Source: Sphaeroforma arctica JP610 (Eukaryota). From it: a DNA stretch of 58,313 nt. Under the pieces are notes generated by a model that saw only the letters and a list, made by a program, of their open reading frames with translations, was not told the DNA's origin and made no database searches. A program made the translations under genes and the position numbers. This document shows, in pieces, positions 2,639 through 29,293 of this stretch. Positions within the stretch are counted from its first letter, which is position 1, and every line of letters starts with the position of its first letter. Location: contig NW_014040356.1 in NCBI RefSeq assembly GCF_001186125.1, forward strand, positions 57,704 to 116,016. The letters are read 5' to 3'.

Positions 2639-2639
2639 G

Positions 2640-4510: not shown

Positions 4511-4541
4511 TCATAATATATGAATGTAAACATTCGAATAC

Positions 4542-5374: not shown

Positions 5375-5804
5375 TGTAAGTGGAGCTGGAGCAAGGTTTG
5401 TTGGTAACACTTACTCTTGGGTTTGAGAGGAAATAAAATGGTCACCAAGCCGTGTTGACCTGTTAAAACTTGTAGAATCCTGTATAGTATGGAGAGTAGC
5501 TGAAAGGTACGAGACAATAGAATACAGTAGACCACTTCTCAATTATGGTTATCTCAGCTAGGAAAAGTCCTTAGTTTGAGAGAACCAAACAGAGTCTTTC
5601 TTTGTGTTTTCACTAGACTCAGGATTTACTCGAGTGTTTCTCTCATACGCGGGAGTCCCGGTATAGCTTACCAGTTCTACCGCTAGTATTTCTGATGACT
5701 AATATCAGAAATATTCCAATCCTAATTTCAAAACTCAGTATCTGATTATTCTGGGTTTTGGGATTTGAATTGTCTTTTTGATAACCTGGTCCCTAGATGC
5801 TACA
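5375..5804 (-). repeat. Putative 3' LTR of Gypsy A (PPT at ~5805-5816)
   Basis: On the minus strand a G-run (gggggga) directly precedes TGTA at 5804. A TGTA/TACA partner end at 5375 is plausible but less certain. Confidence 0.65.
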
Positions 5805-6259
5805 TCCCCCCCAACTTTATGCTTCTTAGCCTGCGTAGGAGTAGAAAGTGACATCTTATAGTACTAGATTATCTAGAGGTTGGTGTTTGTATACAGGGAA
5901 AAATTTGTCCCTTACGGGGCATAAGATGAAAAATCTGCCACCATTATCTATTACATATTACCGATTAATATAATTTATACTTTATCAGGAGTCCTCTACC
6001 ATGCTCATCGGGGTCAGTCTTGACCAGTGCTCTCGGTTGATCTCAACTTGGCTTAGGAAAACGCATCTCAACGGTGGCTCTACAGCTGAGTCTCTGGTCC
6101 TTGTCCCGCTGGTGTACGGGGGGAGCATGCTTCTAGGCGAGAAAAGTAGGAGTGTCCTGTGGTATCAGTGAGACTTGCTTAGATCCCCCGCCTCGTGCGC
6201 TGTCTGTGGCTCGCTGATCTTTCATCAGTGCTCTTGTCGCTGGCTTCTTTGGCCTTGAC

Positions 6260-6420
6260 TACCTTCTTTTACGTCTCCGGCGTTGACGATATGTTGTAAT
6301 GACATCAGCATCTGCGATGTCTGATTCGTGCGTCCAGGTACACTCACCATCTATCCATTGCAGTAGGTACTCCTGGGATCCATCACCTCGGATGGACGGT
6401 ATGTCGTCGACTATCGGGGA
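6260..6420 (-). pseudogene. Chromodomain of Gypsy A integrase
   Basis: Manual translation IRGDGSQEYLLQWIDGECTWTHESDIADADVITTYRQRRRRKRR. Confidence 0.7.
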
Positions 6421-6525
6421 GAGCTGAGTCTCTTCGTTTGGTTGTACGTGATTATTGGAAGTAAATGCTTCCGGAGCACTGGCCCCTTGTACGAGGCCAA
6501 GTAGCTCATCACTGATCGAGTCAGG

Positions 6526-7480
6526 TTATTCGGGGGCTCTAGTCCCATCAAGGTTACAGACAAAATACCCGTTGCCCTCCCTGGATACTATTTTGTATGG
6601 TCCACCATTTGGTGCTGTTAACTTGTTTATTTCACCTTGATAGCGGTCCATGACAAGGTCCCCTTCCTGCAAATTTATATACTTCTGCTGCTCGCATCTT
6701 CTCTTGATACTGTGCAACATTACTATCTAGTTGTGGCCTAATGGCTTCTTCTAGATTTTGCAGTCGCTCTTCCCAAGATACTGTTGTACTGGGTGCGGTC
6801 ACTGGCTCTTTGTAGTCCGTGAGTTGATTCTGTCTGCGACCAAAGTACACATTAAATCGCGGTGGTTTGTGTGTACGCAGATTATGGCCCATCTGTACGA
6901 ATGGAAGTCGTGAACACCAGTTACCTGGATTCTGTTCCGCAAATTTCCGTAGCAGTGGCATGAGGTCTCTATGTGATTGTTCGTTTGCACCTAAGACTTT
7001 AGGTTGATATGGCCGAGAAATTAGGAGTTGCATTGGCGCTTGCTTAGCAACTTTGAGAGTATGTTGTTAACATATTCAGTGCCTTGGTCCGTTTGTATGA
7101 TTTGTGGAAATCCATGTTCACACATATTTGGTACCAGTGTGCGTGCTATGGTAGCCGCCGATTTGTCCATCATTGGATGCAAAATGACGTACGATGAATA
7201 TACATCAAGCCATGCTAGCACGTATGTGTGTCCTCTATTGGAATTCAATAGTGGCCTTATGGTGTCCACTTGGACTCTGTCGCTTGGATATGCGGCTGTA
7301 ATTGATTGTAAGGGGTGAAATCCCTTTTTGAGTATTTTCTTTTTGAGACATGGTATACATCCATCAATGAACTTGTGTACATGTTGTTAGATATCAGCCC
7401 AATCATGCCCATCTGCTTGCAGCTTGTGTACTGTTTCCTCCAGAGTGTAATGTCCCAAGTTGTGGTATTGTTCGATGATA
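6526..7480 (-). pseudogene. Gypsy A integrase (frameshifted)
   Basis: WLDVYSSY, HGFPQIIQTDQGTEY, GANEQSH, EGDLVM and GPYKIV spread over consecutive ORFs. Confidence 0.88.
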
Positions 7481-7596
7481 TTGACATGTGTCTTATATTA
7501 CGTTGCCTGTGGTGCGTCTCCAGAGTGAACTGGTTCTGACGCTGCAACGTGTATAGCAGGTTGTTCCCGCGTCGAGTCAAAGTATGGAGACTTAGC

Positions 7597-7995
7597 TTCT
7601 ATCTTTGCGACTAATGGGACACCCCATGGTGTTTTTCCACAAGCCATCTTGCCCTCTTTGAGGAAAGTATTGTTTGTGTTTTCCACTAGCATCGGATCTT
7701 CTTCTAGTAAAGACAAGAACTTTGGAAACCACGAGGCATTGGGGTAGTATGGTACACATATCGTGACGCTGGTTGCCTCTTCAATGACTTTGTCAAGGAC
7801 ATCGGGTATGAGTTCCCATGGTGGGTTCGCCCATGCATTCACTTTCTGCGCCCACTTCTGTTGTAGCGCATTCTGTTCTTTGGTGTAGTATTTATCTGTG
7901 TGCGCATTGTGTGCCGATGCAAACAGATCTACTGTGAACTTCCCAAACCTTTGTTCCGCTTCTTGATAGAATCTGGGATGTAACATCCAGTCTAT
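7597..7995 (-). CDS. Dam-like amino-DNA methyltransferase domain in Gypsy A pol (open frame)
   Basis: DWMLHP...FGKFTVDLFASAHNA...W...AWANPPWELI...ICVPYYPNASWF, directly after the RNase H end DMLSR. Confidence 0.85.
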
Positions 7996-8437
7996 AGCCG
8001 ATATGGTTATGGGCATGTTCGTTTCCAAGGTGGTGTACTCTTGGCTATTATGTGTTGCCTCATTCGCCTTTTGTAATACTTTTGACTCTTTAGTACTAAA
8101 AGTATCTTCATGGAGACGTGACAACATGTCTCTCATCTGGTTGTCCTTGTCTGTGACATGTATGATGAAGAAATGGGGGTGGAACGTTTTTGCTATTCAT
8201 TTGGCTAGCATTGGGTGTAACGTCTGTTGACTGTTCAATTGCGCGAGCGCTTTGTGATCTGTCCACAGTGTTATGTCCCCCCCCCTTGATGTATTCGGAT
8301 AAATATTCCAGGCTTTATACCAGTGCTAGTAGCTCTTTGGTATTTATGTCATAGTGTTGTTGTGCTGGATTCAAGCCTTTTGAGAAGTAAAGAATGTCTC
8401 ATCTAACTCCATCGATGACTTGAAATAGACACCCTCT

Positions 8438-8730
8438 GCCGCACTACACGGCGCAGACCCGATCCGTACCACAGAGGTGGGTACTCTACTTAGTAGGTCA
8501 GCAAGCGAATATATGGAACATTCGATAGTAACAATGTTTTGTCAACATCGGCCCGAATTGACTCAGCGCATATCTTCCATTGTCGACTCACTTGGCCCAA
8601 GCTTCAAACGGGAATTTACTGACCACTTCTTCCCATCAGTCTTTCCTGAATCACTACAGCGACTATGAGAGCCATACCATATGTTCATACATTGTAGCAT
8701 ACATACTTGTCATTTTTGAAATAAATAATA
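8438..8730 (+). mobile_element. 3'-terminal fragment of a non-LTR retrotransposon inserted in Gypsy A RNase H
   Basis: Near-identical to 28160-28447, ends in gaaataaataata and splits the DASDDGIG|GCLFQ motif. Confidence 0.88.
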
Positions 8731-9421
8731 TTATCCCTATGCCATCGTCACTAGCATCGTTCATAATTTGAGACGGTACTCCATCAACAGGGTATGCTAG
8801 CGTTACTGAACAGGAGATGGCTTCTTTGAGTTCTTCCCACTTCTTTATTAGTTCCGGTGTTCATAACATGGATATGTTCTGGTTCATTTTTCCTTTCATT
8901 AGGTTCCGAAAGTGTTTCGTTGTGTGAGCAAAGTTAGGGACATGGTCTCGCATGTAATTTGCTAGTCCCACTGCTTTGTGCAGATCTTTGTTCAGGGTTT
9001 TTCTGTTTCTCAGGGTCTGCCTTGAGTCCCTGTGTGGTGACTTTCACCCCCAGAAGGTTGACCACTTTGACCGCGAAGGCACACTTGTTGTGATTGTGGA
9101 CATGATGACGGACCTTGGGTTATATATTGGCGGAATTCAGTCACCACTCGCACCCATCGACCCAACGGAACTAGATGGCCTCCTTACACCTATGGCTCGG
9201 CGTCAAACCCCCAACACCACCGAACCCGACGGAGTACGGACAAGGCTGGCCGCAGTGTTAGAAGCGAACGCCGACATTGCAGAAAATGCACGTTGCCGCT
9301 TAGAGGGGAGTGAAGTAGCGATACCGGTGACACGTGAGCAGGCTATGAGCATGAGACGATCGACACGCAACTTTGTATCCGAGAGGTGGTTACCGTATGT
9401 CGATGAACAGGCACAGAGTGG

Positions 9422-10625
9422 TTGAAGGACCTAGTGATTACGAAGTCTCCAACGACGGTTAATCTTCCCTTACTAGCAGTTATAACGTTCAGCGAGGGTA
9501 ATATGAAGAAGATACGCGTATGTCTAGACATGCGAGCGGTCAACGCACTGATTCCACGAGACCAGTTCCTGATACCGAAGGTGAATGAGATCATTTCACG
9601 ACTAAAGAGCAGGAAGTACTATACCACACTCGATATATCAGCAGCATATCATAAACTACCGATACACCTGGATTCTAGATGCCTATTTAGTTTCACACAC
9701 GATCGATACCAGTACTCATTTACATCGGCACCTTTCGGGTTGCACGTATTGACGCAACAACTCCAACAGACGCTCAGTACGATACTAGATGGACTACCAG
9801 TTCACCTCTACATTGACGATATTGTGATTGCAAGTGATGATTATGACGAGCACATCGCTATAGTGAAGGAGGTGATCAGAAGATTGACGTAGCACAGTTT
9901 CAAACTGAATCCAGCGAAATGTCACTTTGCAATTGCAGAGGTTATGATACTAGGCAAGAAGGTCTCAGCGGCAGGGATTGACGTCAACTTTGAGAAGCAA
10001 GCTAAACTCTTCGACTGGCCAACACCTCAGCGATACAAGGGCATTGCCTCCGCATTGGGTTTAGCTAACTTCTTGCACGAACGCCTACCCAATTTCGCAC
10101 ACGTAGTAGCACCTCTACGGGAGTTTTGCAAGCTGAAGCCGAATGAACTGATCGGAGATAGGTGGGAACAACGCCATTCAGACGCGTGGAAAGCCAGGAA
10201 GGACGCAATAACTAACGCGGTCGCTCTACACTTTTCGGTGGATGATGTCACCCTCAACCTCGAGACGGACGCGAGAGACTATGGACTGGGAGGGGCACTG
10301 TTCCAGTGGGTGGAGGGCAAGAAACACTACCTGATGTTTTTCAGCAAGACACTCAATCAGGCTCAACAGAGTTATGCGACACCCATGAAAGAACTACTAG
10401 CGTTAGTCTACGGGTTGACACACTTCCGCGACTACCTCGACGGCCAGCGCTTTGCGGTGTTTGCGGATCACAAAGCATTAGTATATATGAATACCCAACT
10501 GAAGCTTAATCCTATGCAACAGAGGTGGCACCACATCATAGCGCCCTTTAACTTCACCATTTCACATATTCCTGGGGAGAAGAATGTCCTGCCGAATATG
10601 TTGAGTCGCATACATGAAGGGACCG
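9422..10625 (+). pseudogene. Gypsy B reverse transcriptase and RNase H (in-frame stop at 9890)
   Basis: ORFs 9422..9892 and 9944..10768 with canonical Ty3 motifs. Confidence 0.92.
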
Positions 10626-10657
10626 CGGAAACAGACGTGCCAGAGATCCTGTATGCA

Positions 10658-11060
10658 GACTGTTGGCAATTATTTCCCAGCTACTTCGAACAAGCACAAC
10701 ATATCTTTGTACACAACAACATAGACGTGTTCGCAGCACCTCACAACGCGCAGCTTCCTAGGTTTTGAACAAAGAACGAACACGACGGTGCGTTTGATCA
10801 TAACTGGGCGATGGTCGACGGGTGGATGAACCCGCCGTGGAGGTTAATACACCGCATGCTTCGGAAGATCAAAGCGGACGGGACTACAGCGACGGTGTGC
10901 TTACCTTGGACTCCTCGCGCACCATGGTTTGACCTTTTCAAATCATTATTGCAAGCCGAGCCAGTGTTAGTACCCCGGACCCCGCATACATTTCTAAAGT
11001 ATGCGAAGTATGCCTGTGGGAAGATTCCGTAGGGGCACACGGTCGTTGCACGAGTGGGGC
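10658..11060 (+). pseudogene. Dam-like methyltransferase domain in Gypsy B pol
   Basis: CWQLFP...IDVFAAPHNAQLPRF*...NW...GWMNPPWRLI...VCLPWTPRAPWF. Two in-frame stops, at 10766 (TGA) and 11030 (TAG), the latter at a position that is Trp in elements A and C. Confidence 0.85.
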
Positions 11061-11249
11061 CGCCGTCAGGATTCCAGCTAGCCGAGAGCTTTACACAAAG
11101 ATTAGGCTATGCCGAACCTCGACACACACCATACCATCAGTGTTTGGATACGGCACGAGAGATTTCCGTGGCGTTAACTAATGAGGGGGCACAACCGGCA
11201 TTTGCGAATGCCACACCGATGGAACAACAACGACGTACGCAACTCACAC

Positions 11250-12929
11250 AGGCACAGCATGAGCAAGGCCACCACGGCGCTGCCGATACTGTCCAACAGT
11301 TACAACAGAACAGATACGTTTGGCCGGGGGCATCAGAACTGGCTACAGAAATTAAACGGCAGTGTGGACAGTGTTTGGGCCAGGATACCCTACGTAAAGG
11401 CTTCCATCCGATGATAAGCATGGACGCGAAGTACCCTTGGGATCACATTCAGGTGGACAATATTACAATGCTGGTAACGTCCACAAGACAGATTAAAGTT
11501 ATCCTCCATGTATTAGACGGGGCTTCCGGCTATTCGAACCTACGTGCTACGCCAGATAAGACTAAGGAAACCACCGCGTAGATGTTGTTGTCTATCTTTG
11601 GCGACCATGGCTTCCCTCGCAAGCTACAGACTGATATGGGTAATGAGTTTACGAACAACATGGTCGCCCTCATAGTCAAGGCAGTGGGTATACTTCACAA
11701 TGTATCGCCACCTAATAGACCACAGGTGTTGGGGGCAACGGAACGTCGGCACAAGGAGATAACATGTTCAATACGCATCGTCTATGAGGCAGTACCCCAA
11801 GCATGGGACGAACGCCTCCCTTATACAATGATGTACCAGAACTTGTTTTAGGCAAAAGCGCGCCGTTTAGTGTTTATTTCGGCCGTCGACACGTGCCGTT
11901 TGCGGATTTCACCGATGACGTCCCAGAGCAACAACCGGTTACTAATGACACGTGGGCACTACGGTTGGATCAGCTCCAGGATACAATTTTGTCTACACTG
12001 CATAAGATCACTACGACCTATACGGACAAATTGGCGAAGATGTTTGATCGGTTACACGCCCATGACTTAGTCCACTTTGATGAAGGCGACGTCGTGATGG
12101 TTGTTAGAGTGTAAGATGGTAGTCTTTGAATAAAGCGTAATTGTATATCTTTATTTACAACCTCACCTTTGGTTTTATACTCAAGGTGTTTGTGCTAGTG
12201 TTCAACCGCTTGGGTTGGCCAGGGTGAAAAATCAAATGGTCAGTATGAGAACCTTTTGCAGAACACTTTAACACTTAGATATTGTTCTATAGCATAATCT
12301 CTGCTACTCGCTCTTACGCCGATCAATTAATGTTGCGTGGCTTTCAGAGCAATTCTCTCCTAGGTATCGGCTTTCGGAGCAATGCTCTCATAGGAGCAAA
12401 TGTATTATTAACATGATGTGGTTAATAATTTGATCCGCTTTTCGGAGTGACGCAACTATTGTGATTTCATTCAAGAAAAAGAGTTTTCTTGCTATTGAAA
12501 CTTGCTTGAGATCTGTAGTCTCTCAATGGTGAAATCGGAGGGGCGAACTTCCAAAGCCATGCGCCCACTGTTTGGCCCATTTGTAGTTAAAGGCCGCAAC
12601 GGTCAAGGTTATGACCTTACACATAGAGATGGATCCACTCCCAGGAGCTTAAGGGGAAGTCGGTACGGGTTGAGTTACTACGGTTGGTCCACCGCAGTAC
12701 AGACCCACCGTTGAACGATGATCTTTGGGAAGAAGGCGGGCCAGCGTTCCGTCACATCATCAAACATAGGACAAATGATGTTACGGGTAAGCTCGAATAC
12801 CTGGTGCGTTGGCATGAGGGGGTGCCGACGTGGGAAACGGCCGAGGCCTTTGACGACACTAACGACATTGTGGCATATCACAAAGATACACAGACAAGAG
12901 CTCGGAAACGCCGGAGAGACCAGTTATAG
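11250..12929 (+). pseudogene. Gypsy B integrase with HHCC finger, GPF motif and chromodomain, interrupted by a solo LTR
   Basis: HEQGHHG...CGQC, LDGASGY, QTDMGNEF, GPFVV, EYLVRWHEGVPTWE. Confidence 0.9.
12102..12525. mobile_element. Solo LTR of another family nested in Gypsy B
   Basis: TG...CA termini with a 5-bp target-site duplication ATGGT (12097-12101 and 12526-12530). Removing it restores GDVVMVKSEGRTSK...GPF. Confidence 0.88.
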
Positions 12930-13140
12930 TTAGAAGATAATTTTGTAAGTTACGTGTACTTACCGTTTAGTCACCAGCTCGAGTGGTGAACAAATAGCCG
13001 AGCCCTCTAGCTCTCGGAGGTTAAATGCCAGCACAATGCTCTAGCTCTCTAAGGATAAATGCCAGCACGCAACCGCTTTCAGGGCATTCCTTCAATCTTT
13101 TAAGCTCGCACACTTGTGGTGTTTCAGCTTGGGGGGGGGT

Positions 13141-13551
13141 TGTAGTCAGGAAGTCCTGATAGGGTTTATTTAGGATTAGGGGTTATTTGATATTTGAGTT
13201 TTTATTAGAGACTACATTTGAATTGGGTTTATCCAATCAGGTTAAAACTGATTAACGGAAAGCACATGACCAAAATAATAGTCATAGGATTTCAGTTCAA
13301 GAAATGAACATCATCTCCCCTTGTACGAGGGGAGTACGTTGAGATACAGTTATCCCCGACTACTTACTACATTATTATGACGGTCCAGAATACAATTTAT
13401 ATACCACCGGTCCTGATGACTTGGAACTGTGCACCTGAGCCTAATATGTATTGGACAGGTTGAGGCCATGCCTGTGGCGCATACCACACATACAGTTAAC
13501 GCCACGGTGGAAACAAGGTTAACGACACGACAGTATCCGACAGTTTACGAC
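13141..13551 (+). repeat. Putative 3' LTR of Gypsy B
   Basis: Begins TGTAG right after a G-run PPT. The 3' end is not determined. Confidence 0.5.
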
Positions 13552-14199
13552 AGTATTCACCAGTCGGTTGCCTGTTGAACACTGTCACACCCTCATACCT
13601 AGCCAGCTGGATAGCGTTTCTGCTAAATTTACGATTGTCGTCGGAAGAAAACTGATTTTTGCTCACGACCCTAATCCAGAGGGCCGTGATTTGCTCTCAT
13701 TTTTTTTCTCAACTTGGGGTATAGTCAAATGTGATGCATATCATAGCCAACCGATTTTTTTGGAGGTTCTTCCGCTACGGAACCATAACTATGTTCAATA
13801 GCCCAAAATTTAGGTATGGAAGTTTGCCGTTAAAAATAATGGCTGTCTGTGAGGTTAATCAGATTATTCTCCCACCTGATTGGTGGAAAAAAAGTTCAGG
13901 CGAGGTACGTGTTGCAATATTACATTGAGTCAACCGGTGTACGAGTAAATGTCTGGTGTTTCGTATCAGTTTAATTATGGTATGCTTACAGACTTGTAAG
14001 GCGCAATGCAGTGGTCATAAGTGAAAGGTTCAGGGGTTGCTCACATGCACTCTGTGCTGGTGTGCTTGCCAGGGTTCTTGTCGTTAAGCGGCAGTGGCAC
14101 CAACGCTAGTCAGCAAGCGGCCGCGGCTGGCACCCAGGATACGTCACTGAACGAGAGACTTATCGACAATAGATTTATAGACGAGTGAAACGCATTCCA

Positions 14200-15720
14200 A
14201 TTTATTTTTGCGAAGATGCTTTTGGTAGCAAGGGAAGTTTGATGACTTCACAGCAGACAAACAAAATCGACTAGGGAAACTAATACGTTCATGTATGAAA
14301 GTTGCGAAAGTGTTATTCCCTGATAATTACAGCACTTTTATATTTAAGTGCGTCGTCAAACACGAGTCGATCTTAAAAAGAAGATTGCAGAGCTTCACGA
14401 AGCTTTGTCTATGGTTTCGAACGATGATACACGACGTGTTGATATGGCATTGCTGACACAGGTAGCCAAACCCACTAAAAAAAAACAAAGCGAACACCGG
14501 AGCGTCGTACCACCGAAGATATTGACGAGGATCCGGCAGAGGACGAACCTACATATCAGCGTGAGTTGAAAGATCGAAAAGTAACTATACCTAACTTCCG
14601 CCCTACAGAATACACACTCGAGAATAAGGACTTTAGTCTTCTCGTAGCAGAAGCAGAAACGAAGGATCAATTATAGACCATCAACAATGCACGATATACA
14701 TGATAAGGCTTACAAATGTGTTGAGTACATACTTGATGATAGTATCTGCGCTACAACAGCCTTCGGAAGAAAGAAAGTTTTCAACGGTGAAGTGATTGTT
14801 GATGCGCCCAAAGTGAATAGGCGTCTGCCAATAGCAAAGTTGTACTTAGCGTATCAGGCATACTGCCAGTCCAATGATAACATATTCATATGTAAGTCTA
14901 ACCTTTTCTGGATAGCTAGTGAGTTGACTAATAGAGAGAAGCAGACACTCAATGGTGTCGACCATGTTGCGCAATGATACTTCTACAATGTATTTGAGAA
15001 AGAAGCAGTGGTGAAGGGTATATACATCGAAACAAATGAAGATCAAGAAGTATACAAGACTATGAAGGCTAGGCTTGGCGTCCTATTCGATTTCATGATA
15101 GACGTTCACAATTAACACATACGTATTCTTAACTGTGCCGGTGCGGCAGCCCATTGCACTATGCGAGCGGTAATGGATGATGAGCACCCCGTACCGCATA
15201 ACCATGAGTGTGTCGAATGCTCTGGTGCTCAGAAGCCATCGAATATGCTATACTTTTGCAAGAAACAGACGAAGTATCATACGACAAATATATACGTGCT
15301 CTTGAGTATTGCACTAGAGGGTTTGTTCATGTTTGTCGAGGTGAACACCAACAGAGAGGGTTCGATGATAGTAGGAAGAAGCTGAAGGAGGACGAGCTAT
15401 ATATATATAATAAAGGACTTCCGTGTGAAATATCTCAGAAATCAGCAATACAGAGGAAAAAGGATAATCATATGGAAGCACATATATGAGCACACACACC
15501 ACAGCCGTATTGAACAGAATTATCAATATAGGAGACGATGATGAAGAGCGCGTCACAATGACATGTGAGTTTATTGATGTTATAACCAAAGATAGTACGA
15601 GTCAGAACTTGTTTCAGATTTTTTGTGATGTTGAAGCTGCGCTGTCGCCAATACGTTAAAACCCAAATACGACCACAAGCATAAATAGTATATCCAAAGT
15701 GACGGTGCAAGAAACTAAGT
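14200..15720 (+). pseudogene. Highly degraded ORF, possibly a DDE DNA transposase remnant
   Basis: Stop-riddled coding-like sequence with a Cys/His cluster (AHC...HNHECVEC), FIDVITKDSTSQN and YIQSDGARN* motifs. Confidence 0.3.
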
Positions 15721-18003
15721 CAGTGACATAACGACGATGTCGCTTCTTCGCTTGTGTTCCGAATATGTATTTGGGTTGTTAAAATACCTACACAACGAAA
15801 GATGATTGTGACCGGCATGCGTCACATTTGAAACGCATACGCGATCGGCACCTTGATGGGCTGTACAATTATCGGTTCCCGACCAGGTTACTCGTAAACA
15901 CACACTTCGTAGATGGGCATACATTCTCGTGATTCTTTTTCGGTGCCATATTATGCGAGTATGCTATTGAATATTGATCTAAGCTCTTCGTCAGAGTCGA
16001 GGCGACTCTAAATAACAGCTGATACAAAGCTCTGCCACCATCACAAGTTATCACAAGACCCCTGCCTTTAGCCCTCTTCACCGTTGTCTTCTTCTTCTTC
16101 TTCCCGCCGGCGATAATACCTCCGATCAATGCCAAAACAGCGCTCGTGTCTTTAATCTTGCCTACCGATACTTTGTACAGTTAACCCGGAGTGATAAGAT
16201 TGTACACACAGGTGTAAGCACACTAAGTGTCAATCGTTTGCAACAGGAGATAACCGCAGAAGCACATCAATCACTAGTAGTTGCCGCTGGTTTAATTCCA
16301 TGTGAGAAAGTGGCCGAATGTTTACATAGAAATGATTTTTTAGATGGACACGTATGTATAGACACCGACACACCAGTTACAGCTTCAACACAGTTAGTAG
16401 AGGTTGCACACCCAGATATGGGGATACGCCAAAGATGGTGATATGCATATGGGTGATGTGCGCTACGCATCACACACCGCATATGTATCAGGTATAAAGT
16501 GACATATATACGCCGACGCAAGTGAGAGATGACATATCAGATCATTAGCAATTACAAGCTCTCTTTGTTGGTCTAATGGTGTTAAAGATATGGAGGTGCT
16601 GCTGAGCCCTTATTGTGCACTAACTAAAGTGCGACTGCAAGAGCCATTAAGCGTCTTCATAAACACCGCCGGCACTAAGATTGATCTCATCAAGCGGCTC
16701 ATCAGATAGGGTGCCAATGAACTTTATTCGGCCGCCGATATTCCATAGTTTACACGCTGAGATTTTCCACGTTGCAGTAACGAGGAAAGTACAAACGCAA
16801 ATAATTTATAATTTTGTAATATTGAGCCGCATAGTTCACTGAGCAACTTCTAGCTATTACGACCAACAGAAAATCAACACAGAACTATAGCAGCTGAAAG
16901 TGGATGGAATATCTGTCCAACACCAACTATCTACGCGATCCTTCATTGCGACTTGGCTCTAGGAATATGTCTGTTATCGAGCTCGGTAAGAAGCGCAACA
17001 CAGAGACCCAGACTATGTATGTACACGCTTGCAATCCGCACATGCTCAGGGAAAGACCCTTCGGTACAGCGCATGACGCATACTGTTACAAGTTTGGCGA
17101 TGATGCAGGACTATAACTACAGAGTACAACTTCCCGATGATAAAACTAACACTAGAACCAACAACACACACACAAACAGGGAGAGTATCAGCTCTAGTGC
17201 AGGAGGCAATGTAGTACCAGGCAGAAACTTTGTAGACTACAAAACTATAGGCAAAAAAGCGAGCTCTTAGAACTAGTGCACAGTTGTATATGTGTATGGA
17301 GCCAGCTAAACGTATAGGTACAAGCGATCTGCGCGATCTGTTATTCGAAGCACAGTACACATCAATGGATGACGATAGTCATACAGCACTAGCAAGTCAA
17401 CATGGTTGGATATCTGGAGTCGCCACTTCTGCCAGACTCTACAATTCACTATGGACTAAGAGTTGTAAAGGTCGACCTCTTCCTATACGATACCAAAACG
17501 TTTACGTTACATAAGAAAATACGTTCAAGCGTTAAATGCAAAATGTTAAACAAGTTTAGCTTCAGGTCTCGGTTGTGAGCTAAAAGATTAGGGGAATTTA
17601 GACTGAGACTATTGTCTTTATGCTCCGATCAATTCACTCACTACGTCGGTCTAGATTTGTTTACATTTTAGTTAGTAAAATCAGAGACTATTCCATTTGA
17701 CGCATATATTTCACGCCTCGAGACAATCCTCCAATCGAATCAACTAATGAAATATTTCGAAGCCTAACTCAAGAAAATCAAAAATAAAATCAAAACACTA
17801 AACTGGTGCAGTATACATTTGCACCTAAACACCATCACTTATTATCTAGCTCCCTATTTCATTTAAGGCATAAACGGACACATCTAGTTTGCTCGCTAGG
17901 AGGAGTCAGGATCATGTTGTCCTAAATATTGACAATTGTGATCTTGTCCTATTTCTCAGTTGATTGTTTATCTTGCTCTGAGACTATATTGAATTATACT
18001 GAG

Positions 18004-18473
18004 AAACTATACTTAATTCAAATTCTGTCTGATATCCTCTGTTTTGGTACTCCCAGTATGTGGAGTTATCAGAAGTGTCACATTCAGGTTTCAGATTTTG
18101 TCTAAAGACCCAATTTAGATATAATTCCAACTTTAGTGGAAAACAAATAAGCATTGAAAAACCACTAATTGCCCACAGTAGAGTCCCTAGCTCTGATGTG
18201 GACTATCACATGTTCAGAATTTCAAACATCGAAGTTCTAAACTATACTTAAATCAAATTCTGTCTGATATCCTCTGCTTTGGTACACCCAATATATGGAG
18301 TTATCAGAAGTGTCACATTCAGGTTTCAGATTGTGTCTAAAGACCCATTTTAAATATAATTTCAACTTTAGTGGAAAACAAACAAGTATTGCAAAACCAC
18401 ACATTGTCCACAGTAGAGTCCCTAGCTCTAATCTGCACTATCACATGTTCAGAATTTCAAATATAGAAGTTCT
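18004..18473 (+). repeat. Tandem duplication, 2 x ~235 bp
   Basis: aaactatactta...ttctgtctgatatcctctg at 18004 and 18239. The two spurious ORFs MELSEVSHSGFR are paralogous. Confidence 0.92.
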
Positions 18474-18759
18474 TGTTCCTGCTAAATCCGTTTAAACATA
18501 GTCCAGGATTAAAGGTATAAAGGTTTAAACGTTGATACGGTTATAATATACGTTAACATATGCTTCTACTAGAAGGAACTCACTAGTTTTATATCATTTC
18601 GCAACTTTTGTCTCAAGACACTGGAGATGAAGGATGTCTTCAATAGTGGCACATCGGACAACGCCTCCAATGCAATATCTCCAATGAAGAAAACTACAGA
18701 TTACGTACCTGGATGTATGGCACATAAACTAAACCTAGTTCTGAAGCCTAATATACACC

Positions 18760-20240
18760 TATAAATGGTGAGCTTATCACGCCGATTCTTGCAGACGCCC
18801 CTTGAAACACATGTTACCTTCCCTAGAAGATGGCACCCATTCATGCCAAGCCTAAACTCTCCAGATACTTGGGGTTCCCACTCTTCCACATAATACCGGG
18901 GACCAACCTCGCCAGACATATGCAATCCCTGGTTGCAGCATTGTCCCTGGGTATTGCCTCTTTCCGCGCTTATGACTTCTATGGCTTCAGCTGGCGACAC
19001 CCCCGCAGCCGGCTGGTGCTGCTCAAAACATTCATCCTATCTACGGCTACATATGGCCTGAGCATTATTGCCTGGGATCCGCCTATAGGGAAGGATGCGC
19101 TGGACCCCCTGTTCGAGCGCTAAAACTCGGCACTCATCCAAGCAGCAGCCATCATCACGGGCATTCAATATCCTCGGTTTCCCAAACATTAAACAAACTT
19201 ACTCCACTTTTGTGGCCTGTTCCCCACGCGACCATTTGCGGATTACCTCGGAGGTTGCCTGTGACAACAACTCGACTCAATGGCCAGCACAAATCCACTC
19301 ACCCCTCTGACGCAACCCACCTGGGCCCACGACAAACCATCACTGTGCTTCCCGTACAATACCAATGCCCACCTGGAAACTGTATACAAAACCACAAGCA
19401 GGCGTACACCCGACCATGTAGCCCTCCCCCGACACTGTGACAACATTAAGATGAACTCAACGAAACGCTGGTCCAACACGGAGATCGCGGCAATGGCCCG
19501 GCGCTAATACTACTACCAACTGGTCATGGTCAAACCGCCAACCTCAAATCCGGACAAAGCCAGACACGACTATTCAACCGCTGCTTCGAGCCTACACCAA
19601 TCCGGCTCTGAATACGTACATGTTTGCATTGCTCGACTACCGCACCAACGGCTGTCTCTGCCCTGTCTGTCCTGTCTGCCCCAGTGGCCACAAATTTATC
19701 ACCAGCCACTTTGCCTGCATTCAACAACTGATCCGACGCATCCTGGTACCCGAAGCTGCCTCCCACTGGTCTCGACCTCCTCCAGAAATTACAGGAGCGC
19801 CACGACTTCCACGGTATCTGGCCCTCCACGAACACCTTGGATCTTTTCTCCAGTATGCAGAACAACCCCTGTACCCACACCCGTCTCTGATACATCAACA
19901 GATGTTCCTCATACCCCGGCTAATCACGCTATTGGAATAAGAATTCCAACTTCGGTCCAAACCAAGTCATTGCGCCTGTTGGTTCCGCCTATGATACTTT
20001 CGATCAAAGCCAATCAGCACACACTGAGTGCAACCAACCGAATTACGACGTATGACCTGGTCCTACTCGGCGTTTCGTACTCTGCACTAACCCATTCCAC
20101 GGCACTACACGGTGCAAACCCGATTCGTACCACAAAGGTGGGTACGCTACTTTGTAGGTCAGCAAGCGAATACGTGGCACACTCGATGATGTCAGGATTT
20201 TGGTAGCACCGGCCTTGAGAATTGACCCAGCGTATATCCT
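18760..20240 (+). mobile_element. Non-LTR retrotransposon fragment (RT C-terminus, Cys/His motif, C-terminal domain), degraded
   Basis: Collinear with 26768-28300; RYLGFPL; CLCPVCP...H. Confidence 0.85.
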
Positions 20241-20274
20241 CACGCATCATTATGGACAAAGTACATTAGATGGA

Positions 20275-20385
20275 GATTTAGGACCGGATCAGAGGACCGA
20301 ATCAACAAGAGGAATTTAGGACCGGACCAAGAGGACCGGACCTGAGAGGATTTAATTGAGGACCGGACCAGAGGACCGGACCGAA
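20275..20385 (+). repeat. Short tandem gaggaccgga repeats (possibly within the 5' LTR of Gypsy C)
   Basis: About six ggaccg[g/a]a units. Confidence 0.6.
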
Positions 20386-23300
20386 TAGAAGAATATATAA
20401 TTTAGTGATAGATAAAGATGACTCATCGGACGTCATTAATATTTAGTAACTAGGAGACAATAATCTTAGATACGGAGATATTCACAATCTGCCGTTGTTA
20501 GAGAAAATCTCGTCCCACATAGGAACGTGATTAACAAATACAGCAGACGCGCCGTTCACAGCGGCACATCTGACTGAGTTCACCTATTTCAGACTTAACA
20601 CTCTTTACTAAGCGCTACTCGGTTTTGACTACATTTTTTAGTGACCGAACTACTGTACTTATTATACTGCGTTCTTTAAAGGCTAAATCAACTAAGAAGC
20701 AACTTAGTTTAAATTTCTTTTTTTTAGCACAATGACGGGACCCAATACTACACAGTTACCCAAGGTGGGTAAGCAAGCTTGTGACCGGCTGCTGAAACGG
20801 TTGCTTGCAGCTCTTCACCGTTCGCCCTTAATATGCGCTAAGGTAGAGACAGCAGTTGCTAAGAAACCCGCGCTCGAAGACGAAAAGAAGTAGAAAAACA
20901 CGCTTCACTGACCCGTTTGATCTCGGAAGCCCAACACTCGATTTCTCTCTTGGGGGAAGCTTCGATAAGCGCCGGAGTGGATTTCTGATCAAGAGGGACA
21001 CTTGACCACGATGAGACATGTGCAGGAGGCCACGGAAGTTATTAAACTCATTTGTGAGTAACTTAGCCAACTTCGTGAACTTTCGATTGCGGATATTGAT
21101 ACGTATACGCCTCAGGACTCGGTCCAGACAACATCAGATGCCATTTTTTTTGCCGGATGCTATTTTTTTTTGCCCCAGGACTCGGTCCAGGCGCAGAAAT
21201 CGGTCCAGACAATATCGGATGCTGATTTTTCGCCTAAGATCTCGGGCCAGACACCATCGGATGCTGTTTCTTCTGAGCCTCAGGTCGCACCGACATGGAT
21301 AACTCCAACTGGCCAGCTACCTAACAACGTAGTTGACAATATGAAGCAAATCAGCCCGGTGAAACGTAAAACGCACGAAGCCTGTACCTCATGTGATTTT
21401 TTACAATAATATCCACATTACTCGTAGAGAGCGGATGTTGAAGAACGCTCAAAATCGAGCACAAACAATTCCGACCCCTGAAGAGATAACGGCTGACTTT
21501 TGTGATTCGAATCGAAATCAGGAATCGACAACTATGGTGAAATCGCTTGGTAGATTTTTATTTTTGGAACCAGCGGATTTTCACTTGGACATGGACACTC
21601 CGTGGAATCTATCGTCGCGGCAACAGATGAACCAGGGTCAAGTGGCAGCAAACTTATTTCGTGATAAGTTGCAACGTCATCGTCGCCCACGATCGCCAGA
21701 AGAGTTACAGGAGAACTGTCAGGATACTGCGAATGTACCTATTGATACGATTTCATATCGCAAATACTTTCCCGTTCATCACGACCGCTACTTAGAAGAC
21801 CCACAGAAGGTGAAACGCTAGAAACGTTCCGAACCTGCGGAGCCTAGCGACATCAGCCAAGATGAAGATGCAAGTTTTTCAACTGACTCATGGAATGATG
21901 CAGGGTTTAATTCGAGCTTCGAATGAGACTCTGAAAACGTACTCAGCAACGGTCGACAAACGAATACCGAACGAATGGCCGCCTCATCTACAGGGCTACT
22001 ATAATTTGGATAACCCGCAGAAGATAAAGTTGCATCTTAGACTGGCATAAGAATGCACAATTCCATAAGCTAGAACCGGTTCATATGCAAATGGGTTTAA
22101 ACCGAGCTCTACAGCAAGAAGGGGCTTCCAAGGCGCTATTGGATTTTATTGTAGAGAATGAACAAAAATTGCAGTCGATGACTTTTGAAGATGGCACTGC
22201 TTTTATTGTACGCACGCAAGAGCAAGACCTGGAGGATAATGCATACCGGCAGGTGTTAGCGTGCATGAAGCTGAAGCCATCGGTCCCGCTTGGTACTCAG
22301 ATTCATGATTTTGAACGCAAGGTTGAATTCATGGAAATGTGACAGTATGAGAACCCACTACAGGTATACCGCAACCATGGTGTACTTGATCTGGTACGTC
22401 AAGCTGCAGGTGGGCATACTATCGTGTTACTCTTCGAATGCATCCACATTGACGGGACTACTCATCTGAGAAAATGCGTGATGTATTCCGTGTGAACATT
22501 GACAACCCAGAAGAAAATCGTCAGGACAAGCCCTCGCGACCACAACGGATTCCGGGGAACTCGCGATCACATTCGTATTTACGTACGGATGCGAATACAC
22601 GCGCTAACCCGCATGCATCACCTACATCGAATCCTCGGATTCGCTGTCGCTCGTGTGAGCAGAACGTTCCGCCGGGACCAGGACATACAAGTCGATGTCC
22701 TAACCTACAACGACTACTGGTCCAGACCAACACAGGTAGCCATGCACAACATGGTTGGGCTACAGTTCAACGTACATCGGCCATGAACACATCGACACAC
22801 GGGACACACGGTTCGGGTACTAACTTCCGACCTCGTGTTGACTTAGTGGACGGTGATATCGTGCCTGATCAACCGCCAAATGGGACGGGGGAGACTGAAG
22901 TGATGCATATTCATGACTTGGTCGACGAGTCGTATGTACAGAGTGACGATGAGTTGATGGAAGAAAAGCAGACACCCGAAGGTTGGGAAGTTGGAACAGA
23001 TTCGGACTGAAAGACTGGAGTGCCTGATGTGAACATGTGCATGTCCTTTGGTCGTACGGCAACATGAATATTTGCAGTAAAAGATAAATTGTTTCCTACT
23101 GACAACCGTGTATATGTTACTTTACAGGTGAACGGACATGACATGCGCACCCTTATCGACACGGGAGCCAATCGTTCAGTCATCACTCAGTCATCACTCA
23201 GGCATCCGCAGCTAAGGCACAGCTATCTATTACACACCGGCTAAGGATAGTTACATATATTTGGTGGATAAAGCCTTCCGGATTCTATGGTTGGGTAAAA

Positions 23301-23880
23301 CACAAGCAACAAAGGTTAAGTACGGGTCAGCTACTAATGAGGGTTGCACGTTTGAACATATAAATCTACCGGATAACATTGATATAATACTGGGTATGGA
23401 TATTATGGGAGAGCTGGGATTAGGTTTAACCGGCTTAGTATCTTCATTCTCGGAGATTAATCGCAATGTTATGGATGAACTACTGGAACCGATCAATCTT
23501 CGAATAGCCCCAGACATGTCCGAGCCAGATGACATACGGCAACGTTTACGCCAATATCTGGATGCCAATGATACAGTGCTGGATGCGGCTCGCTGTACAC
23601 TACCAGGTAGTGAAGTGTCCCTCCCTATGCCTCGAGATAAACTGCTGGGCTTACGTCGGCAGACATGAAACCTAGTATCTGACAAGTACAACCCACATGT
23701 AACGAAGCAAGTGCACAAATGGGAAAACGAATTGATCACCAATCGTCGAACATCTGTGTCGATTGTTAACCTCTCATTGTTGGTGGTACCATCCTTCACA
23801 CCGTCGGGAGAACTTATCAAAGTGCGGGTATGCTTGGACCTCCGGCAGATTAACGCTCTTATTCCGGGCGATCAATTTAC

Positions 23881-24384
23881 GCTTCTGAAGGTTAACGAGA
23901 TCATCAGCAACTTGAAGGGCAAGCGCTAATATACCACGTTAGATTAACCGGCCGCATACCATCGTTTACCGGTGCACGTAGATTGGCAGCATATGTTTTC
24001 GTTGACATAGAATAGTCAGCAATACCTATTTACGTCGGCTCCCTTTGGGTTGACAACACTCACGTCACAATTTCAACGGACAATCAGTAATTTGATGGCG
24101 GGACTGTATATGCAGTGCTACGTCGATGATCTGCTTCTGAAGGTTAACGAGATCATCAGCAACTTGAAGGGCAAGCGCTAATATACCACGTTAGATTAAC
24201 CGGCCGCATACCATCGTTTACCGGTGCACGTAGATTGGCAGCATATGTTTTCGTTGACATAGAATAGTCAGCAATACCTATTTACGTCGGCTCCCTTTGG
24301 GTTGACAACACTCACGTCACAATTTCAACGGACAATCAGTAATTTGATGGCGGGACTGTATATGCAGTGCTACGTCGATGATCT
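23881..24384 (+). repeat. Exact 252-bp tandem duplication inside Gypsy C RT
   Basis: 23881-24132 equals 24133-24384, including the same stop codons. Confidence 0.93.
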
Positions 24385-25204
24385 GATAATTGCGTCGGAC
24401 GACTACGAGGAACACATCGCTACGGTTCAAGAGGTCATTCGACGCCTGACAGATAACTATTTCAAACTTAATCAGAAGAAATGTTACTTTACTGTGCGAG
24501 AGGTGATGGCCCTGGGAAGAAAGATATTTGCTAAAGACATTGACGTGGATCATGAGAAACAGCAACGATTAATTGACTGGCCAATTCCACGGTGTCAAAG
24601 GGATATTGCGTCTGCGTTAGGATTGGCAAACTTCCTACACGAGCATTTACCTAAGTTTGCACATAAGGTGGCTCCACTACGAATGTTTTCTAAGCTTAAG
24701 CCAAAGGAGCCCATTGGGGATCGTTGGAAACCAGAACATCAATTGGCATGGGATCAGATGAAGGAGGCTATCGTGTCGACAGTCCGGTTGAACTTTCCTG
24801 TTGATGGTATACCACTAAGCGATTATGGTATTGGTGGAGCATTGTTTCAACTGATTGACGGACGCAAACATTACCTGATGTTCTTCTCAAAGACTCTCAA
24901 CAAGGCACAACAGACATATGCAACCCCGATGAAAGAGATATTAGCACTTACCTACGCTCTGGTTCACTTTCATGACCATCTCATTGGGCAGCGGTTCACT
25001 GTGCACACAGATCATAAGTCTCTCATATACATGGACACTCAGCTGAAATTGAATGGTATGTTACAGCAGGGGCACCACATTATTACACAGTTCAATTCTA
25101 CCAATACTCGTGTACATGGAGAACTGAACATGTTACCCGACATGTGGAGTCGAGTTCATGAGGGCACGGCGGATATCAACTACCCCGCGGTGTTCTATAC
25201 GTCA

Positions 25205-25550
25205 TGTTGGAAGTTGGATTTCTTTGACAAGGTCCAGAAACATTTTGGGCCTAACAACGTCGACGCCTTTGCATCAANNNNNNNNNNNNNNNNNNNNGAA
25301 TACAATACATGGATGAATCCACCATGGCGCCTTATACATAAGGTATTGCGTAAGGTGTTGGATGACACGGCGTCCGCGACAATATGCTTACCGTTGAACA
25401 CACGTGCACCGTGGTTCCCGCTACTTCTGTTGATGATTCAAGCAGACCCGTTAGTTATCCCGCGCACAGCTCACACATTCTTAAAGCACGGCTCACAGGC
25501 TTGTGGTAAGTACCCATGGGAGCACACCATCATGGTACGTATTGGCCCTT
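25205..25550 (+). CDS. Dam-like methyltransferase domain in Gypsy C pol (spans a small N gap at 25278-25297)
   Basis: CWKLDFF...FGPNNVDAFAS...WMNPPWRLI...ICLPLNTRAPWF...CGKYPW. Confidence 0.85.
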
Positions 25551-26364
25551 CATCTGGATACAAAGTTAATCCATCGTTCTGGTGTGACCTAAGTATGGCG
25601 ATACCTGTATGTGAAGATGCCAGTACACGTTATCAAGAAGATTGGGCGCAGCCAATGAGGACTATACGGACGCGACAGATCGCCGCACAAGTTCCGGAAA
25701 TATGTGCGGGTGCTACAGTGATGAATCATCAGCTAACCGTCGTGTACAGTTGACATGGCAATTTCATGAACAAGGACATCTGGCGCCGGCAGTGACGGTC
25801 CCACAGATGCGAGATGACGGGCATAATTGGGACCAAATGCTTCCAATTACGGAAGAGGTCCGTAAATTATGTCGTACAGGCTTGGGTAACGATACGATGA
25901 AGAAGGGATTTCATCCTTGAATGAATATCACCGCTCGGTACCCATGAGATCACATACAAGTGGATCTCATTCCTATGGTAGTCACATCCACTAAAGGAAA
26001 CAAATTTATTCAACATGTGCTTGATGTGGCGTCGGGATACTCGATTCTGCGGACGATACCTGCGAAGGGTGTCAGTGTTTGGTGAGCATGGATTTTCTCG
26101 TAAGGTACAGAGTGACGAGGGCACCGAATTTGTGAACAATATCGTGAAATCTATCCATACCGCCCTCAGACATTGGGTGCGACAGAACGCCGACATAAAG
26201 AAATTCACAAATGTGTGCGCGCACTGTGTGTTTATTGTCCGAAGTTGTGGGATGACATTTACCGTTCACTATGCTATATCAAAACCTCAGAATATCACGG
26301 CGTCACAAGTCCGCACGTTTAGCGTGTATTTGATCGCCGACATGTTCCGTTTGCAAACATGACT

Positions 26365-28449: not shown

Positions 28450-28725
28450 AAGAAGCTGTGATACCGTTGCTTGGTCCCTACGTGATTCACAGTCGAGAGA
28501 ATCAGAGTTTCCATCTGCGAGTAAAGGATGGCACTAAGCCGCCTGAGCTCAGGGACCGACCAGTTAATATTGAGATAGTTAGGCTGGTACATCGGACTAC
28601 GGAGCCACCATTGGATGAGTCTCTATGGAGAGAGGGTGGCTCGACATTTCGACACATCATCTTCTACCGACTTAATAAGGCGACTAAGCAATCGGAATAC
28701 TTTATACGTTGGTTGGAAGGATGTA
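28450..28725 (+). pseudogene. Gypsy C GPY motif and truncated chromodomain
   Basis: LLGPYVI...RLVHRTTEPPLDESLWREGG...EYFIRW matches element B at 12560-12830. Confidence 0.85.
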
Positions 28726-29293
28726 GCCGGATGTCGAAAGCGGATCCAAACGCGTGAGAGTCGACGACAACGACGTTTGGTACAAGGATAGAGCAGCCTG
28801 GGCCGATGGTATGTCTGGCCGGGGTTGCGTCTTTGCTGCATGCTTGGGTGATGAAAGCACACTCGTATACCCGATATCAGGCATTAAAGGATTAACATTG
28901 TTTCAATAAAATAATTATACATATATTAGACAATTAGTATTAACCTATGCAATATACACGAGTTGCACAGATCACTATTGAAAAACAAATCGAAAGTTAC
29001 TGATTTATTTACGTTATTTCCCACAATTCCCGTCCAAACGCCAAAACACTTTAAAATTTGTCCAAACGCGAACTCGCCTTCTTTTTTTACATTAACGTTA
29101 GTGTGGGATCAAAAGTCGATTCGAGTCCCACATAATTTCATTGTTTGCACAAAGACCGTCTTAATTTATATACACGCCCCCTAAATGTTACGACATTTAG
29201 CATTTTCCTGATTTGACACCCTGTTTTCTCACCCCACCCAAAGCCCGACCACGTCCCATTCCCATTTTTTTTTTGTAAATGTTACGACATTTT

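What the first reader, a model, noticed from the sequence alone, without database searches (positions are those of the whole stretch)
7597..25550. Ty3/Gypsy chromoviruses carrying a Dam-like DNA amino-methyltransferase between RNase H and integrase, in three separate elements
Seen in sequence: three distinct Gypsy elements (7597-7995 minus, 10658-11060 plus, 25205-25550 plus) each have a ~130-aa domain in frame after the RNase H end (MLSR/MWSR) and before the HHCC/DDE integrase. The conserved pattern is W.L...F...D[LVA]FA...N...W..NPPW.LI...L.K...T[IV]C[LV]P....WF...P.....TFLK....CGK.P. Established knowledge: [DN]PP[YFW] is catalytic motif IV of N6-adenine/N4-cytosine MTases, and this DLFA...NPP Dam-like domain is a known cargo of DIRS tyrosine-recombinase elements. 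It is not part of the standard Gypsy PR-RT-RH-IN-chromo pol. Inference: this is a lineage of DDE-integrase LTR retrotransposons that pairs a DNA-methyl writer with a chromatin-reading chromodomain in one polyprotein, perhaps marking its cDNA or integration site. Motif conservation across diverged families, while the linkers differ, suggests selection. I am not aware of this architecture being described for Gypsy, but cannot check.
Basis: partly seen in the sequence, partly recalled or inferred. Interest (0 to 1): 0.92.

Follow-up and report, generated by a model that had tools for sequence, protein, structure and literature searches.

The report
Gypsy retrotransposons carrying Dam-like methyltransferase
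Three broken copies of Gypsy-type jumping genes really do carry an adenine-methyltransferase-like domain that likely marks their own copies during replication, but a 2026 preprint already describes this kind of element, so this is a good example with one small correction, not a first.

Summary
Three decayed Ty3/Gypsy copies carry a Dam-like domain (Pfam PF05869; DxFA..HN and NPPW motifs) in frame between RNase H and integrase. Intact 1288-aa relatives have the same order in one ORF. The architecture is not new. Fernandez-Moreno et al. (bioRxiv 10.64898/2026.05.21.726589) describe 'DAM-LTRs', with and without chromodomains, including an ichthyosporean lineage. The nearest named relatives here are Sphaeroforma arctica (77-80%) and Abeoforma whisleri proteins, and both RT and Dam trees group the copies with them. 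This scan also noted the architecture before on other DNA. Two refinements. (1) The preprint says this lineage lacks chromodomains, yet a divergent one is present below Pfam's cut-off. It keeps only one of three aromatic-cage residues, so methyl-lysine reading is doubtful. (2) The predicted fold is closest to PCIF1/CAPAM, which favours a single-stranded or RNA:DNA substrate and would fit the preprint's negative E. coli assay. 'Chromovirus' in the phylogenetic sense is not supported. Activity is untested. In passing: Copia polyproteins with the same intact domain, which I did not find described.

The parts
7597..7995 (-). Element A Dam-like N6-adenine methyltransferase domain, 133 aa, no stop; DLFAS..HN and NPPW (N codon at 7827)
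   Evidence: Pfam PF05869 E 1e-16; AlphaFold2 pLDDT 95.7; fold matches class I SAM methyltransferases, best PCIF1 Z 10.6
8000..9095 (-). Element A end of RT, thumb and RNase H; 5'-truncated, frameshifted, with an unrelated insert at about 8435-8722
   Evidence: tblastn with intact relative P0003, 54-84% identity; insert is 96% like 28157-28447 and skipped by contigs
6420..7497 (-). Element A integrase: H2C2 zinc finger, DDE core, C-terminal part; stops and frameshifts
   Evidence: Pfam Integrase_H2C2 E 1e-5, rve E 5e-11
6280..6420 (-). Element A divergent chromodomain
   Evidence: Pfam Chromo 16.9 bits, below the 25.1 cut-off; aligns with chromodomains
5801..5812 (-). Element A G-rich polypurine tract followed by TG (likely start of 3' LTR)
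   Evidence: sequence; LTR role inferred, no second LTR in window
9069..10606 (+). Element B post-protease linker, RT and RNase H; 5'-truncated
   Evidence: Pfam RVT_1 E 1e-14, RT_RNaseH E 3e-27
10658..11062 (+). Element B Dam-like domain, 135 codons, 2 in-frame stops; DVFAAPHN and NPPW (10829)
   Evidence: Pfam PF05869 E 3e-7
11225..12660 (+). Element B integrase, with a 429-bp insert at 12097-12525
   Evidence: Integrase_H2C2 E 2e-6, rve E 2e-8; contigs of 4 of 4 runs skip the insert
12747..12890 (+). Element B divergent chromodomain
   Evidence: Pfam Chromo 19 bits; 23 of 24 PDB sequence hits are chromodomain proteins; model pLDDT about 90 over this part; 40 of 40 Foldseek rows shown are chromo or chromo-shadow domains
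13131..13144 (+). Element B G-rich polypurine tract followed by TG (likely start of 3' LTR)
   Evidence: sequence; LTR role inferred
23101..25159 (+). Element C protease, RT and RNase H; stops, frameshifts and an exact 252-bp tandem duplication
   Evidence: gag-asp_proteas E 1.5e-5; RVT_1 and RT_RNaseH
25205..25552 (+). Element C Dam-like domain with a 20-N gap; DAFAS and NPPW (25316)
   Evidence: own profile 89 bits; 55% identical to B; no Pfam hit
25741..26321 (+). Element C integrase, degraded
   Evidence: tblastn E 5e-18
28464..28760 (+). Element C integrase C-terminal part and degraded chromodomain, displaced by a LINE-like insert
   Evidence: tblastn E 5e-5; alignment with B; no Pfam hit

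Best explanation
These are three decayed copies of Ty3/Gypsy retrotransposons of the described ichthyosporean DAM-LTR lineage, whose polyprotein carries a conserved Dam-like domain that likely methylates adenines on the element's own replication intermediate (RNA:DNA hybrid or single-stranded cDNA) inside the particle. Shown here: domain order PR-RT-RH-Dam-IN-chromo in one ORF, methyltransferase fold, intact motifs, conservation, and co-inheritance of Dam with RT. Inferred: catalytic activity and packaging with Pol. Also inferred, following the preprint's model: the new insertion arrives with 6mA, which host AMT1 then maintains, keeping it transcribed. The chromodomain is likely an inherited integrase-targeting module that has lost its methyl-lysine cage and is not coupled to the methyltransferase. 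Identity and placement about 0.95; the mechanism about 0.5.
For: Intact single ORFs P0003/P0004 (1288 aa, 72-74% identical to A) have PR, RT, RH, Dam, H2C2, rve. 12 of 28 homologues scanned have RT-RH-Dam-integrase in this order. Nearest named relatives are S. arctica JP610 (P0124 77%, P0128 80%) and A. whisleri (P0129 44%, P0130 42%). RT-RH tree: B, C and the A family sit with A. whisleri in an all-Dam clade (14 of 102 rows, SH-aLRT 95; 11 of 52 rows, 98). Dam tree: A, B, C, P0124, P0129, P0130 sit in a clade of 31 of 115 rows, 99. Between P0003 and six distant relatives the Dam domain is 34-46% identical, against RT 41-46, RNase H 31-39, integrase core 29-37 and flanking linkers 5-25. Between window copies pN is 0.28-0.37 and pS 0.73-0.87. 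NPPW or NPPF is kept in 42 of 46 Gypsy-labelled rows. Model pLDDT 95.7; best structural match PCIF1 (Z 10.6, rmsd 2.5, 125 aligned), ahead of T4 Dam (8.4) and E. coli Dam (8.1). [quoted passage not shown] The preprint reports more 6mA and expression on DAM-LTRs than on other LTRs in S. arctica and A. whisleri.
Against: No activity is shown for any retrotransposon Dam; expression in dam- E. coli gave no rise in 6mA (preprint). Iyer et al. (PMC4738411, passage) judged DIRS copies likely inactive. In the closest pair the domain is less conserved (80%) than RT, RNase H or integrase core (92-95%). Synonymous sites are saturated, so no dN/dS could be estimated. The motif census is biased, since rows were found by likeness to an NPPW query. 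By sequence the domain is closer to phage-type Dam (76 of 84 alignment members hit PF05869, 6 of 84 hit the PCIF1 family), and no PDB sequence matches it, so the PCIF1 hit may only be the nearest solved relative. The 6mA enrichment in the preprint is a correlation and could come from host AMT1 acting on transcribed copies. No ApT or GATC bias marks these copies.
Confidence: 0.5

Rival explanations
1. The domain is an RNA methyltransferase like PCIF1: it puts m6A or m6Am on the element's genomic RNA to aid stability, packaging or escape from RNA silencing.
For: Top Foldseek rows are PCIF1, then KsgA/Dim1/Erm RNA adenine methyltransferases; no DNA methyltransferase among the rows shown. VIA-align agrees on PCIF1 first. 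Iyer et al. place DIRS methyltransferases in the PCIF1 clade. The Pfam match covers only positions 17-106 of 169 of the phage Dam profile. The E. coli DNA assay was negative.
Against: Best sequence family is a DNA Dam family. T4 and E. coli Dam also match (Z 8.4, 8.1). Only the catalytic part of PCIF1 (residues 494-650 of the chain) is matched. The preprint finds DNA 6mA enriched on these elements.
Confidence: 0.2
2. The domain is a non-catalytic nucleic-acid- or SAM-binding module, or a spacer between RNase H and integrase, kept for structure.
For: Negative heterologous assay; Iyer et al.'s reading of DIRS copies; 133 aa with only part of the phage profile matched; the DIRS-like element in this window has a degenerate motif, APPE.
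Against: The catalytic asparagine is kept far more often in Gypsy-labelled rows (42 of 46 NPP[WF]) than in DIRS-like rows (46 of 66) (biased sample). The DxFA..HN motif is also kept.
Confidence: 0.2
3. One reading: the chromodomain reads a histone mark and brings a dsDNA-methylating Dam to the integration site, as a coupled reader-writer.
For: Both domains are in one polyprotein. The chromodomain fold is real and well conserved in the closest pair (91%). Sister elements P0187 and P0172 keep a canonical chromodomain.
Against: In A, B, C and P0003-P0008 the first cage aromatic is replaced and the loop with the third is deleted, as in type II chromodomains with no known ligand (PMC6317226, passage). 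Pol polyproteins are normally cleaved, which may part Dam from integrase (established knowledge; cut sites not tested).
Confidence: 0.08
4. Artefact: chance motif, or a DIRS piece nested into dead Gypsy copies.
For: All three copies are degraded and lie among nested insertions, with a DIRS-like element nearby.
Against: Same position in three families only 43-55% identical; intact single ORFs from Logan, NCBI and ENA; congruent RT and Dam clades; the window's DIRS domain is far off (10.8 bits).
Confidence: 0.01

Closest known systems
Ichthyosporean DAM-LTR lineage (Fernandez-Moreno et al., bioRxiv 10.64898/2026.05.21.726589, May 2026; whole held text read, figures, supplement and reference list not seen)
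   Same: Ty3/Gypsy-like Pol with a Dam domain; nearest named relatives are from S. arctica and A. whisleri, two of the three species the preprint names; Asn-Pro-Pro triplet kept.
   Different: The preprint says this lineage lacks chromodomains; here a sub-threshold chromodomain is found in A, B, C, intact relatives and A. whisleri P0130. Its screen used hmmsearch at E 1e-5, which would miss scores of 15-19 bits. The held text does not mention PCIF1, CAPAM or Copia.
Chlorophyta DAM-chromovirus-like clade and EpiLTRs (same preprint)
   Same: Dam and chromodomain in one Gypsy polyprotein.
   Different: Other hosts; described as typical chromovirus-like; EpiLTRs add a cytosine methyltransferase, absent from P0003-P0005.
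DIRS1-type methyltransferase domain, PCIF1 clade (Iyer et al., PMC4738411, passages read)
   Same: Same domain family, directly after RNase H; fold nearest PCIF1.
   Different: DIRS integrates by tyrosine recombinase and many copies have lost the catalytic residue; here a DDE integrase and intact NPPW.
Phage-type Dam, Pfam PF05869
   Same: Best sequence family, above the curated cut-off for A and B.
   Different: Only profile positions 17-106 of 169 match; the C-terminal part differs, so the target is not predictable.
Type II chromodomains of plant chromoviruses (PMC6317226, passages read)
   Same: Lack of the first and last cage residues.
   Different: Here a 3-residue loop deletion, in an RT lineage that falls apart from the plant elements.

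Membership tests
Ty3/Gypsy LTR retrotransposon | Pol order protease-RT-RNase H-integrase | tested here: met
   C and intact P0003/P0004
Ty3/Gypsy LTR retrotransposon | H2C2 zinc finger and DDE (rve) integrase; RVT_1-type RT and Gypsy-type RNase H | tested here: met
Ty3/Gypsy LTR retrotransposon | Two direct LTRs, primer site and polypurine tract | tested here: inconclusive
   G-tract plus TG after A and B; no LTR pair, copies truncated; the one metagenome locus was too short
DAM-LTR, ichthyosporean lineage | Dam domain in a Gypsy Pol with Asn-Pro-Pro triplet | tested here: met
DAM-LTR, ichthyosporean lineage | Dam and RT group with S. arctica and A. whisleri elements | tested here: met
DAM-LTR, ichthyosporean lineage | No chromodomain (descriptive statement in the preprint; the lineage is defined by the Dam tree) | tested here: not met
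   divergent chromodomain present, also in A. whisleri P0130; read as a detection miss in the preprint, not as a different lineage
DAM-LTR, ichthyosporean lineage | Raised 6mA on insertions | not testable with these tools
   needs modified-base reads
Chromovirus | Chromodomain at the integrase C-terminus | tested here: met
   below Pfam cut-off
Chromovirus | RT falls in the chromovirus clade | tested here: inconclusive
   falls outside the clade with plant and fish chromovirus-like rows; p-AU 0.044, group named after seeing the first tree, no curated references
Methyl-lysine-reading (type I) chromodomain | Three-residue aromatic cage | tested here: not met
   only the middle Trp kept in 7 of 7 rows from A, B, C, P0003, P0004, P0005, P0008
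N6-adenine methyltransferase | Class I SAM-dependent fold with [DN]PP[YFW] | tested here: met
N6-adenine methyltransferase | Methyl transfer to DNA adenine | not testable with these tools
   preprint's E. coli assay negative
DIRS | Tyrosine recombinase instead of DDE integrase | tested here: not met
   rve integrase follows the domain

The most novel reading that the evidence does not exclude
The retrotransposon 'Dam' is a minimal PCIF1-like enzyme that methylates the element's RNA or RNA:DNA intermediate inside the particle, not double-stranded DNA. It entered a Gypsy ancestor that already had a canonical chromodomain, which lost its cage in ichthyosporeans, and it has also spread into Ty1/Copia elements at two different positions.
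Probability: 0.3. Interest if true: 0.65.

Novelty: already known. Interest (0 to 1): 0.3.

Why it matters
Retrotransposons that write their own activating mark would be exploiting host 6mA chromatin in close relatives of animals. That idea is already in the 2026 preprint. What this window adds is practical. The intact relatives P0003/P0004 give testable enzymes. The PCIF1-like fold says which substrates to try after the negative E. coli result. The missed chromodomain corrects the description of the lineage.

Tried and rejected
No whole genome is held, so there is no genome-wide count of copies and no dN/dS across copies. Pairwise codon analysis of A, B, C was saturated at synonymous sites. 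A codon-level look at variation among copies of B's domain was not obtained, so selection on recent copies stays open. Several frames were off and were redone. phmmer of the Dam domain against PDB sequences: 0 hits. The profile of alignment A1 found only RNase H neighbours. The first RT tree timed out; later trees are quick IQ-TREE runs without bootstrap. For one search I left out 33 redundant rows and all rows covering under 270 residues; one search used a hand-picked 52; one search left out short and most unlabelled rows. The metagenome scan gave 1 locus of 1457 bases, with no LTR information. Expression: no RNA holder listed on record. One run guessed to be RNA has a deep 1853-letter contig over 10112-11974, which does not show transcription. 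No ApT, CpG or GATC bias sets these elements apart. A profile from 19 canonical chromodomains scored B at 18.8 bits but P0003-P0008 at only 7-8, A at 2.3 and C at 4.9 (best shuffle 1.7), so the case rests on B, the PDB hits and the model. The chromodomain Foldseek search had no hit at E 0.001 or better (best 3.7e-3). Literature searches for Copia plus Dam gave one Bari review (listing only) and nothing; the search for phage HP1/T1 Dam papers gave nothing. No complex was predicted.
Full report
Observation. A six-frame scan gave 11 [NDS]PP[WYF] matches. The 3 NPPW matches lie at 7827 (-), 10829 (+) and 25316 (+), in the stretches named. Copy A scores Pfam Dam PF05869 at E 1e-16 and B, read with X at its 2 stops, at E 3e-7. 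C has a 20-N gap and no Pfam hit, but scores 89 bits on a profile of homologues. In each copy the domain follows a Gypsy-type RNase H in frame and precedes an H2C2/DDE integrase. The three domains are only 43-55% identical, so they are three families.

State of the copies. All are dead. A runs 9095 to about 6280 on the minus strand and lacks most of RT. B begins at about 9069 on the plus strand, head to head with A. C runs from about 23100 to 26320 and resumes at 28464 after a LINE-like insert. A carries a 300-bp insert and B a 429-bp insert, both skipped by public contigs. A G-tract followed by TG lies behind A and B, but no LTR pair is in the window. Thousands of short contigs of 85-100% likeness lay on A and B (10,523 in run X1), as expected for multi-copy families, though this is no copy number.

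Intact relatives. P0003 and P0004 (1288 aa, 72-74% identical to A) and P0005 are single ORFs with RT, RNase H, Dam and integrase; the first two also have the protease. A full HMMER search found 2670 representatives at E 0.001 or better. Of 28 that I scanned, chosen mainly as top or long hits, 12 have RT-RH-Dam-integrase in that order, and 4 of these have a chromodomain above Pfam's cut-off. Of the 10 top clusters looked up, 4 carried species names: two Sphaeroforma arctica JP610 proteins (77% and 80%) and two Abeoforma whisleri proteins (44% and 42%). The host is therefore likely an ichthyosporean; no host gene was tested.

Phylogeny. In an RT-RNase H tree of 102 rows, B, C and the A family join the A. 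whisleri elements in a 14-row clade that is all Dam-bearing (SH-aLRT 95). In a 52-row tree this clade has support 98 and groups (99) with three other Dam-bearing Gypsy elements, two of them with canonical chromodomains. It lies apart from the clade with plant and fish chromovirus-like rows; forcing the two together costs 53 log-likelihood units, p-AU 0.044. That is marginal, the group was named after seeing a tree, and no curated references were used. The Dam tree (115 rows, 146 columns) gives a matching 31-row clade at 99. One acquisition followed by co-inheritance is the simple reading.

Selection. Against six distant relatives the Dam domain keeps 34-46% identity, like RT (41-46) and at or above RNase H (31-39) and integrase core (29-37), while its flanking linkers keep 5-25%. 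Between window copies pN is 0.28-0.37 and pS 0.73-0.87; dS is saturated. Against this, the closest pair differs more in Dam (80%) than in the core enzymes (92-95%).

Fold. The model of A's domain has pLDDT 95.7. Foldseek ranks PCIF1/CAPAM first (E 3e-5), then KsgA/Dim1. VIA-align gives PCIF1 Z 10.6, DIMT1 9.2, ErmE 8.9, T4 Dam 8.4, E. coli Dam 8.1, M.TaqI 7.6. This agrees with Iyer et al., who put DIRS methyltransferases in the PCIF1 clade (PMC4738411, passages). By sequence the family is nearer phage-type Dam (76 of 84 members against 6 of 84 for the PCIF1 family), and no PDB sequence matches. The fold thus proves an amino-methyltransferase scaffold but only hints at the substrate. PCIF1 prefers ssRNA, then hybrid, ssDNA, dsDNA (PMC9178792, abstract).

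Chromodomain. Pfam scores are 15-19 bits against a cut-off of 25.1. For B, 23 of 24 weak PDB sequence hits are chromodomain proteins, the model is confident over that part, and all 40 Foldseek rows shown are chromo or chromo-shadow domains (best E 3.7e-3). A. whisleri P0130 has the same divergent form. The first cage aromatic is replaced and the loop with the third is deleted in A, B, C and P0003-P0008; P0130 appears to keep an aromatic at the first site. Type II chromodomains lacking these residues have no known ligand (PMC6317226, passage).

What is known. Fernandez-Moreno et al. (bioRxiv 10.64898/2026.05.21.726589; whole held text read; figures, supplement and references not seen) report DAM-LTRs as the first non-DIRS LTR elements with this domain. 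Chromodomain-bearing ones make up 30.9% of DAM-TEs. They name five lineages, one ichthyosporean (Pirum, Abeoforma, S. arctica), said to lack chromodomains. They find more 6mA and expression on DAM-LTRs, and no activity in dam- E. coli. De Mendoza et al. 2018 (PMC5890265, passages) cover cytosine methyltransferases in Gypsy and note Dam only in DIRS. A 2019 opinion piece (PMC6338049, passages) has one loose sentence that lumps Dam- and Dcm-bearing Gypsy and DIRS elements. Earlier notes of this scan reached the same preprint for other genomes; they are leads, not support.

Mechanism. Most likely the domain is made as part of Pol, is packaged, and methylates adenines on the reverse-transcription intermediate, so that new copies start with 6mA that host AMT1 keeps up (about 0.5; every step after the fold is inferred). 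RNA-only activity (0.2) and a non-catalytic role (0.2) remain open. A coupled chromodomain reader and DNA writer is the least supported of the real options (0.08).

Verdict. Real, well supported, already described. The value lies in two refinements to the preprint, the overlooked cage-less chromodomain and the PCIF1-like fold, and in a side lead: Copia polyproteins with the same intact domain, not found in the preprint's held text or in two searches. Interest 0.3.

Noticed in passing
homologues P0224, P0247/P0289, P0301 (not in the window): Ty1/Copia polyproteins (RVT_2) with a Dam-like domain: before the protease in P0224, after it in P0247; NPPW intact in the 3 rows checked. They cluster with Gypsy-borne Dams (support 95). 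'copia' does not occur in the preprint's held text, and searches found no description. Hosts unknown.
   Followed up: partly
window 600-4500 (-): DIRS-like element: RT and RNase H hits, a degenerate methyltransferase remnant with APPE (10.8 bits), a recombinase-like frame with no Pfam hit, and direct repeats 543-747 / 4317-4519. Too distant to be the donor.
   Followed up: partly
homologues P0151, P0154: Polyproteins with protease, an endonuclease/exonuclease/phosphatase domain, Dam, then RT, RNase H and integrase: Dam upstream of RT in a third arrangement.
   Followed up: no
homologue P0251: RT-RH-Dam-IN polyprotein with a spumavirus-like protease hit; its Dam falls among DIRS-like rows, so likely a separate capture.
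   Followed up: no
window 18760-20240, 26768-28447 and 8435-8725: Copies of a LINE-like element (85% alike); its 3' end is inserted into A's RNase H and a longer copy splits C.
   Followed up: partly
window 23881-24384: Exact 252-bp tandem duplication inside C's RT, 100% identical in an otherwise decayed copy; may be an assembly artefact.
   Followed up: no
window 45707-48484 (+): 925-aa open frame with a reprolysin (M12B) metalloprotease and at least 8 EGF repeats.
   Followed up: no
window 32266-35328 against 41470-51957: A nested series of inverted matches (76-98%), so the first stretch is an inverted, internally deleted copy of the second, including part of the metalloprotease frame.
   Followed up: no
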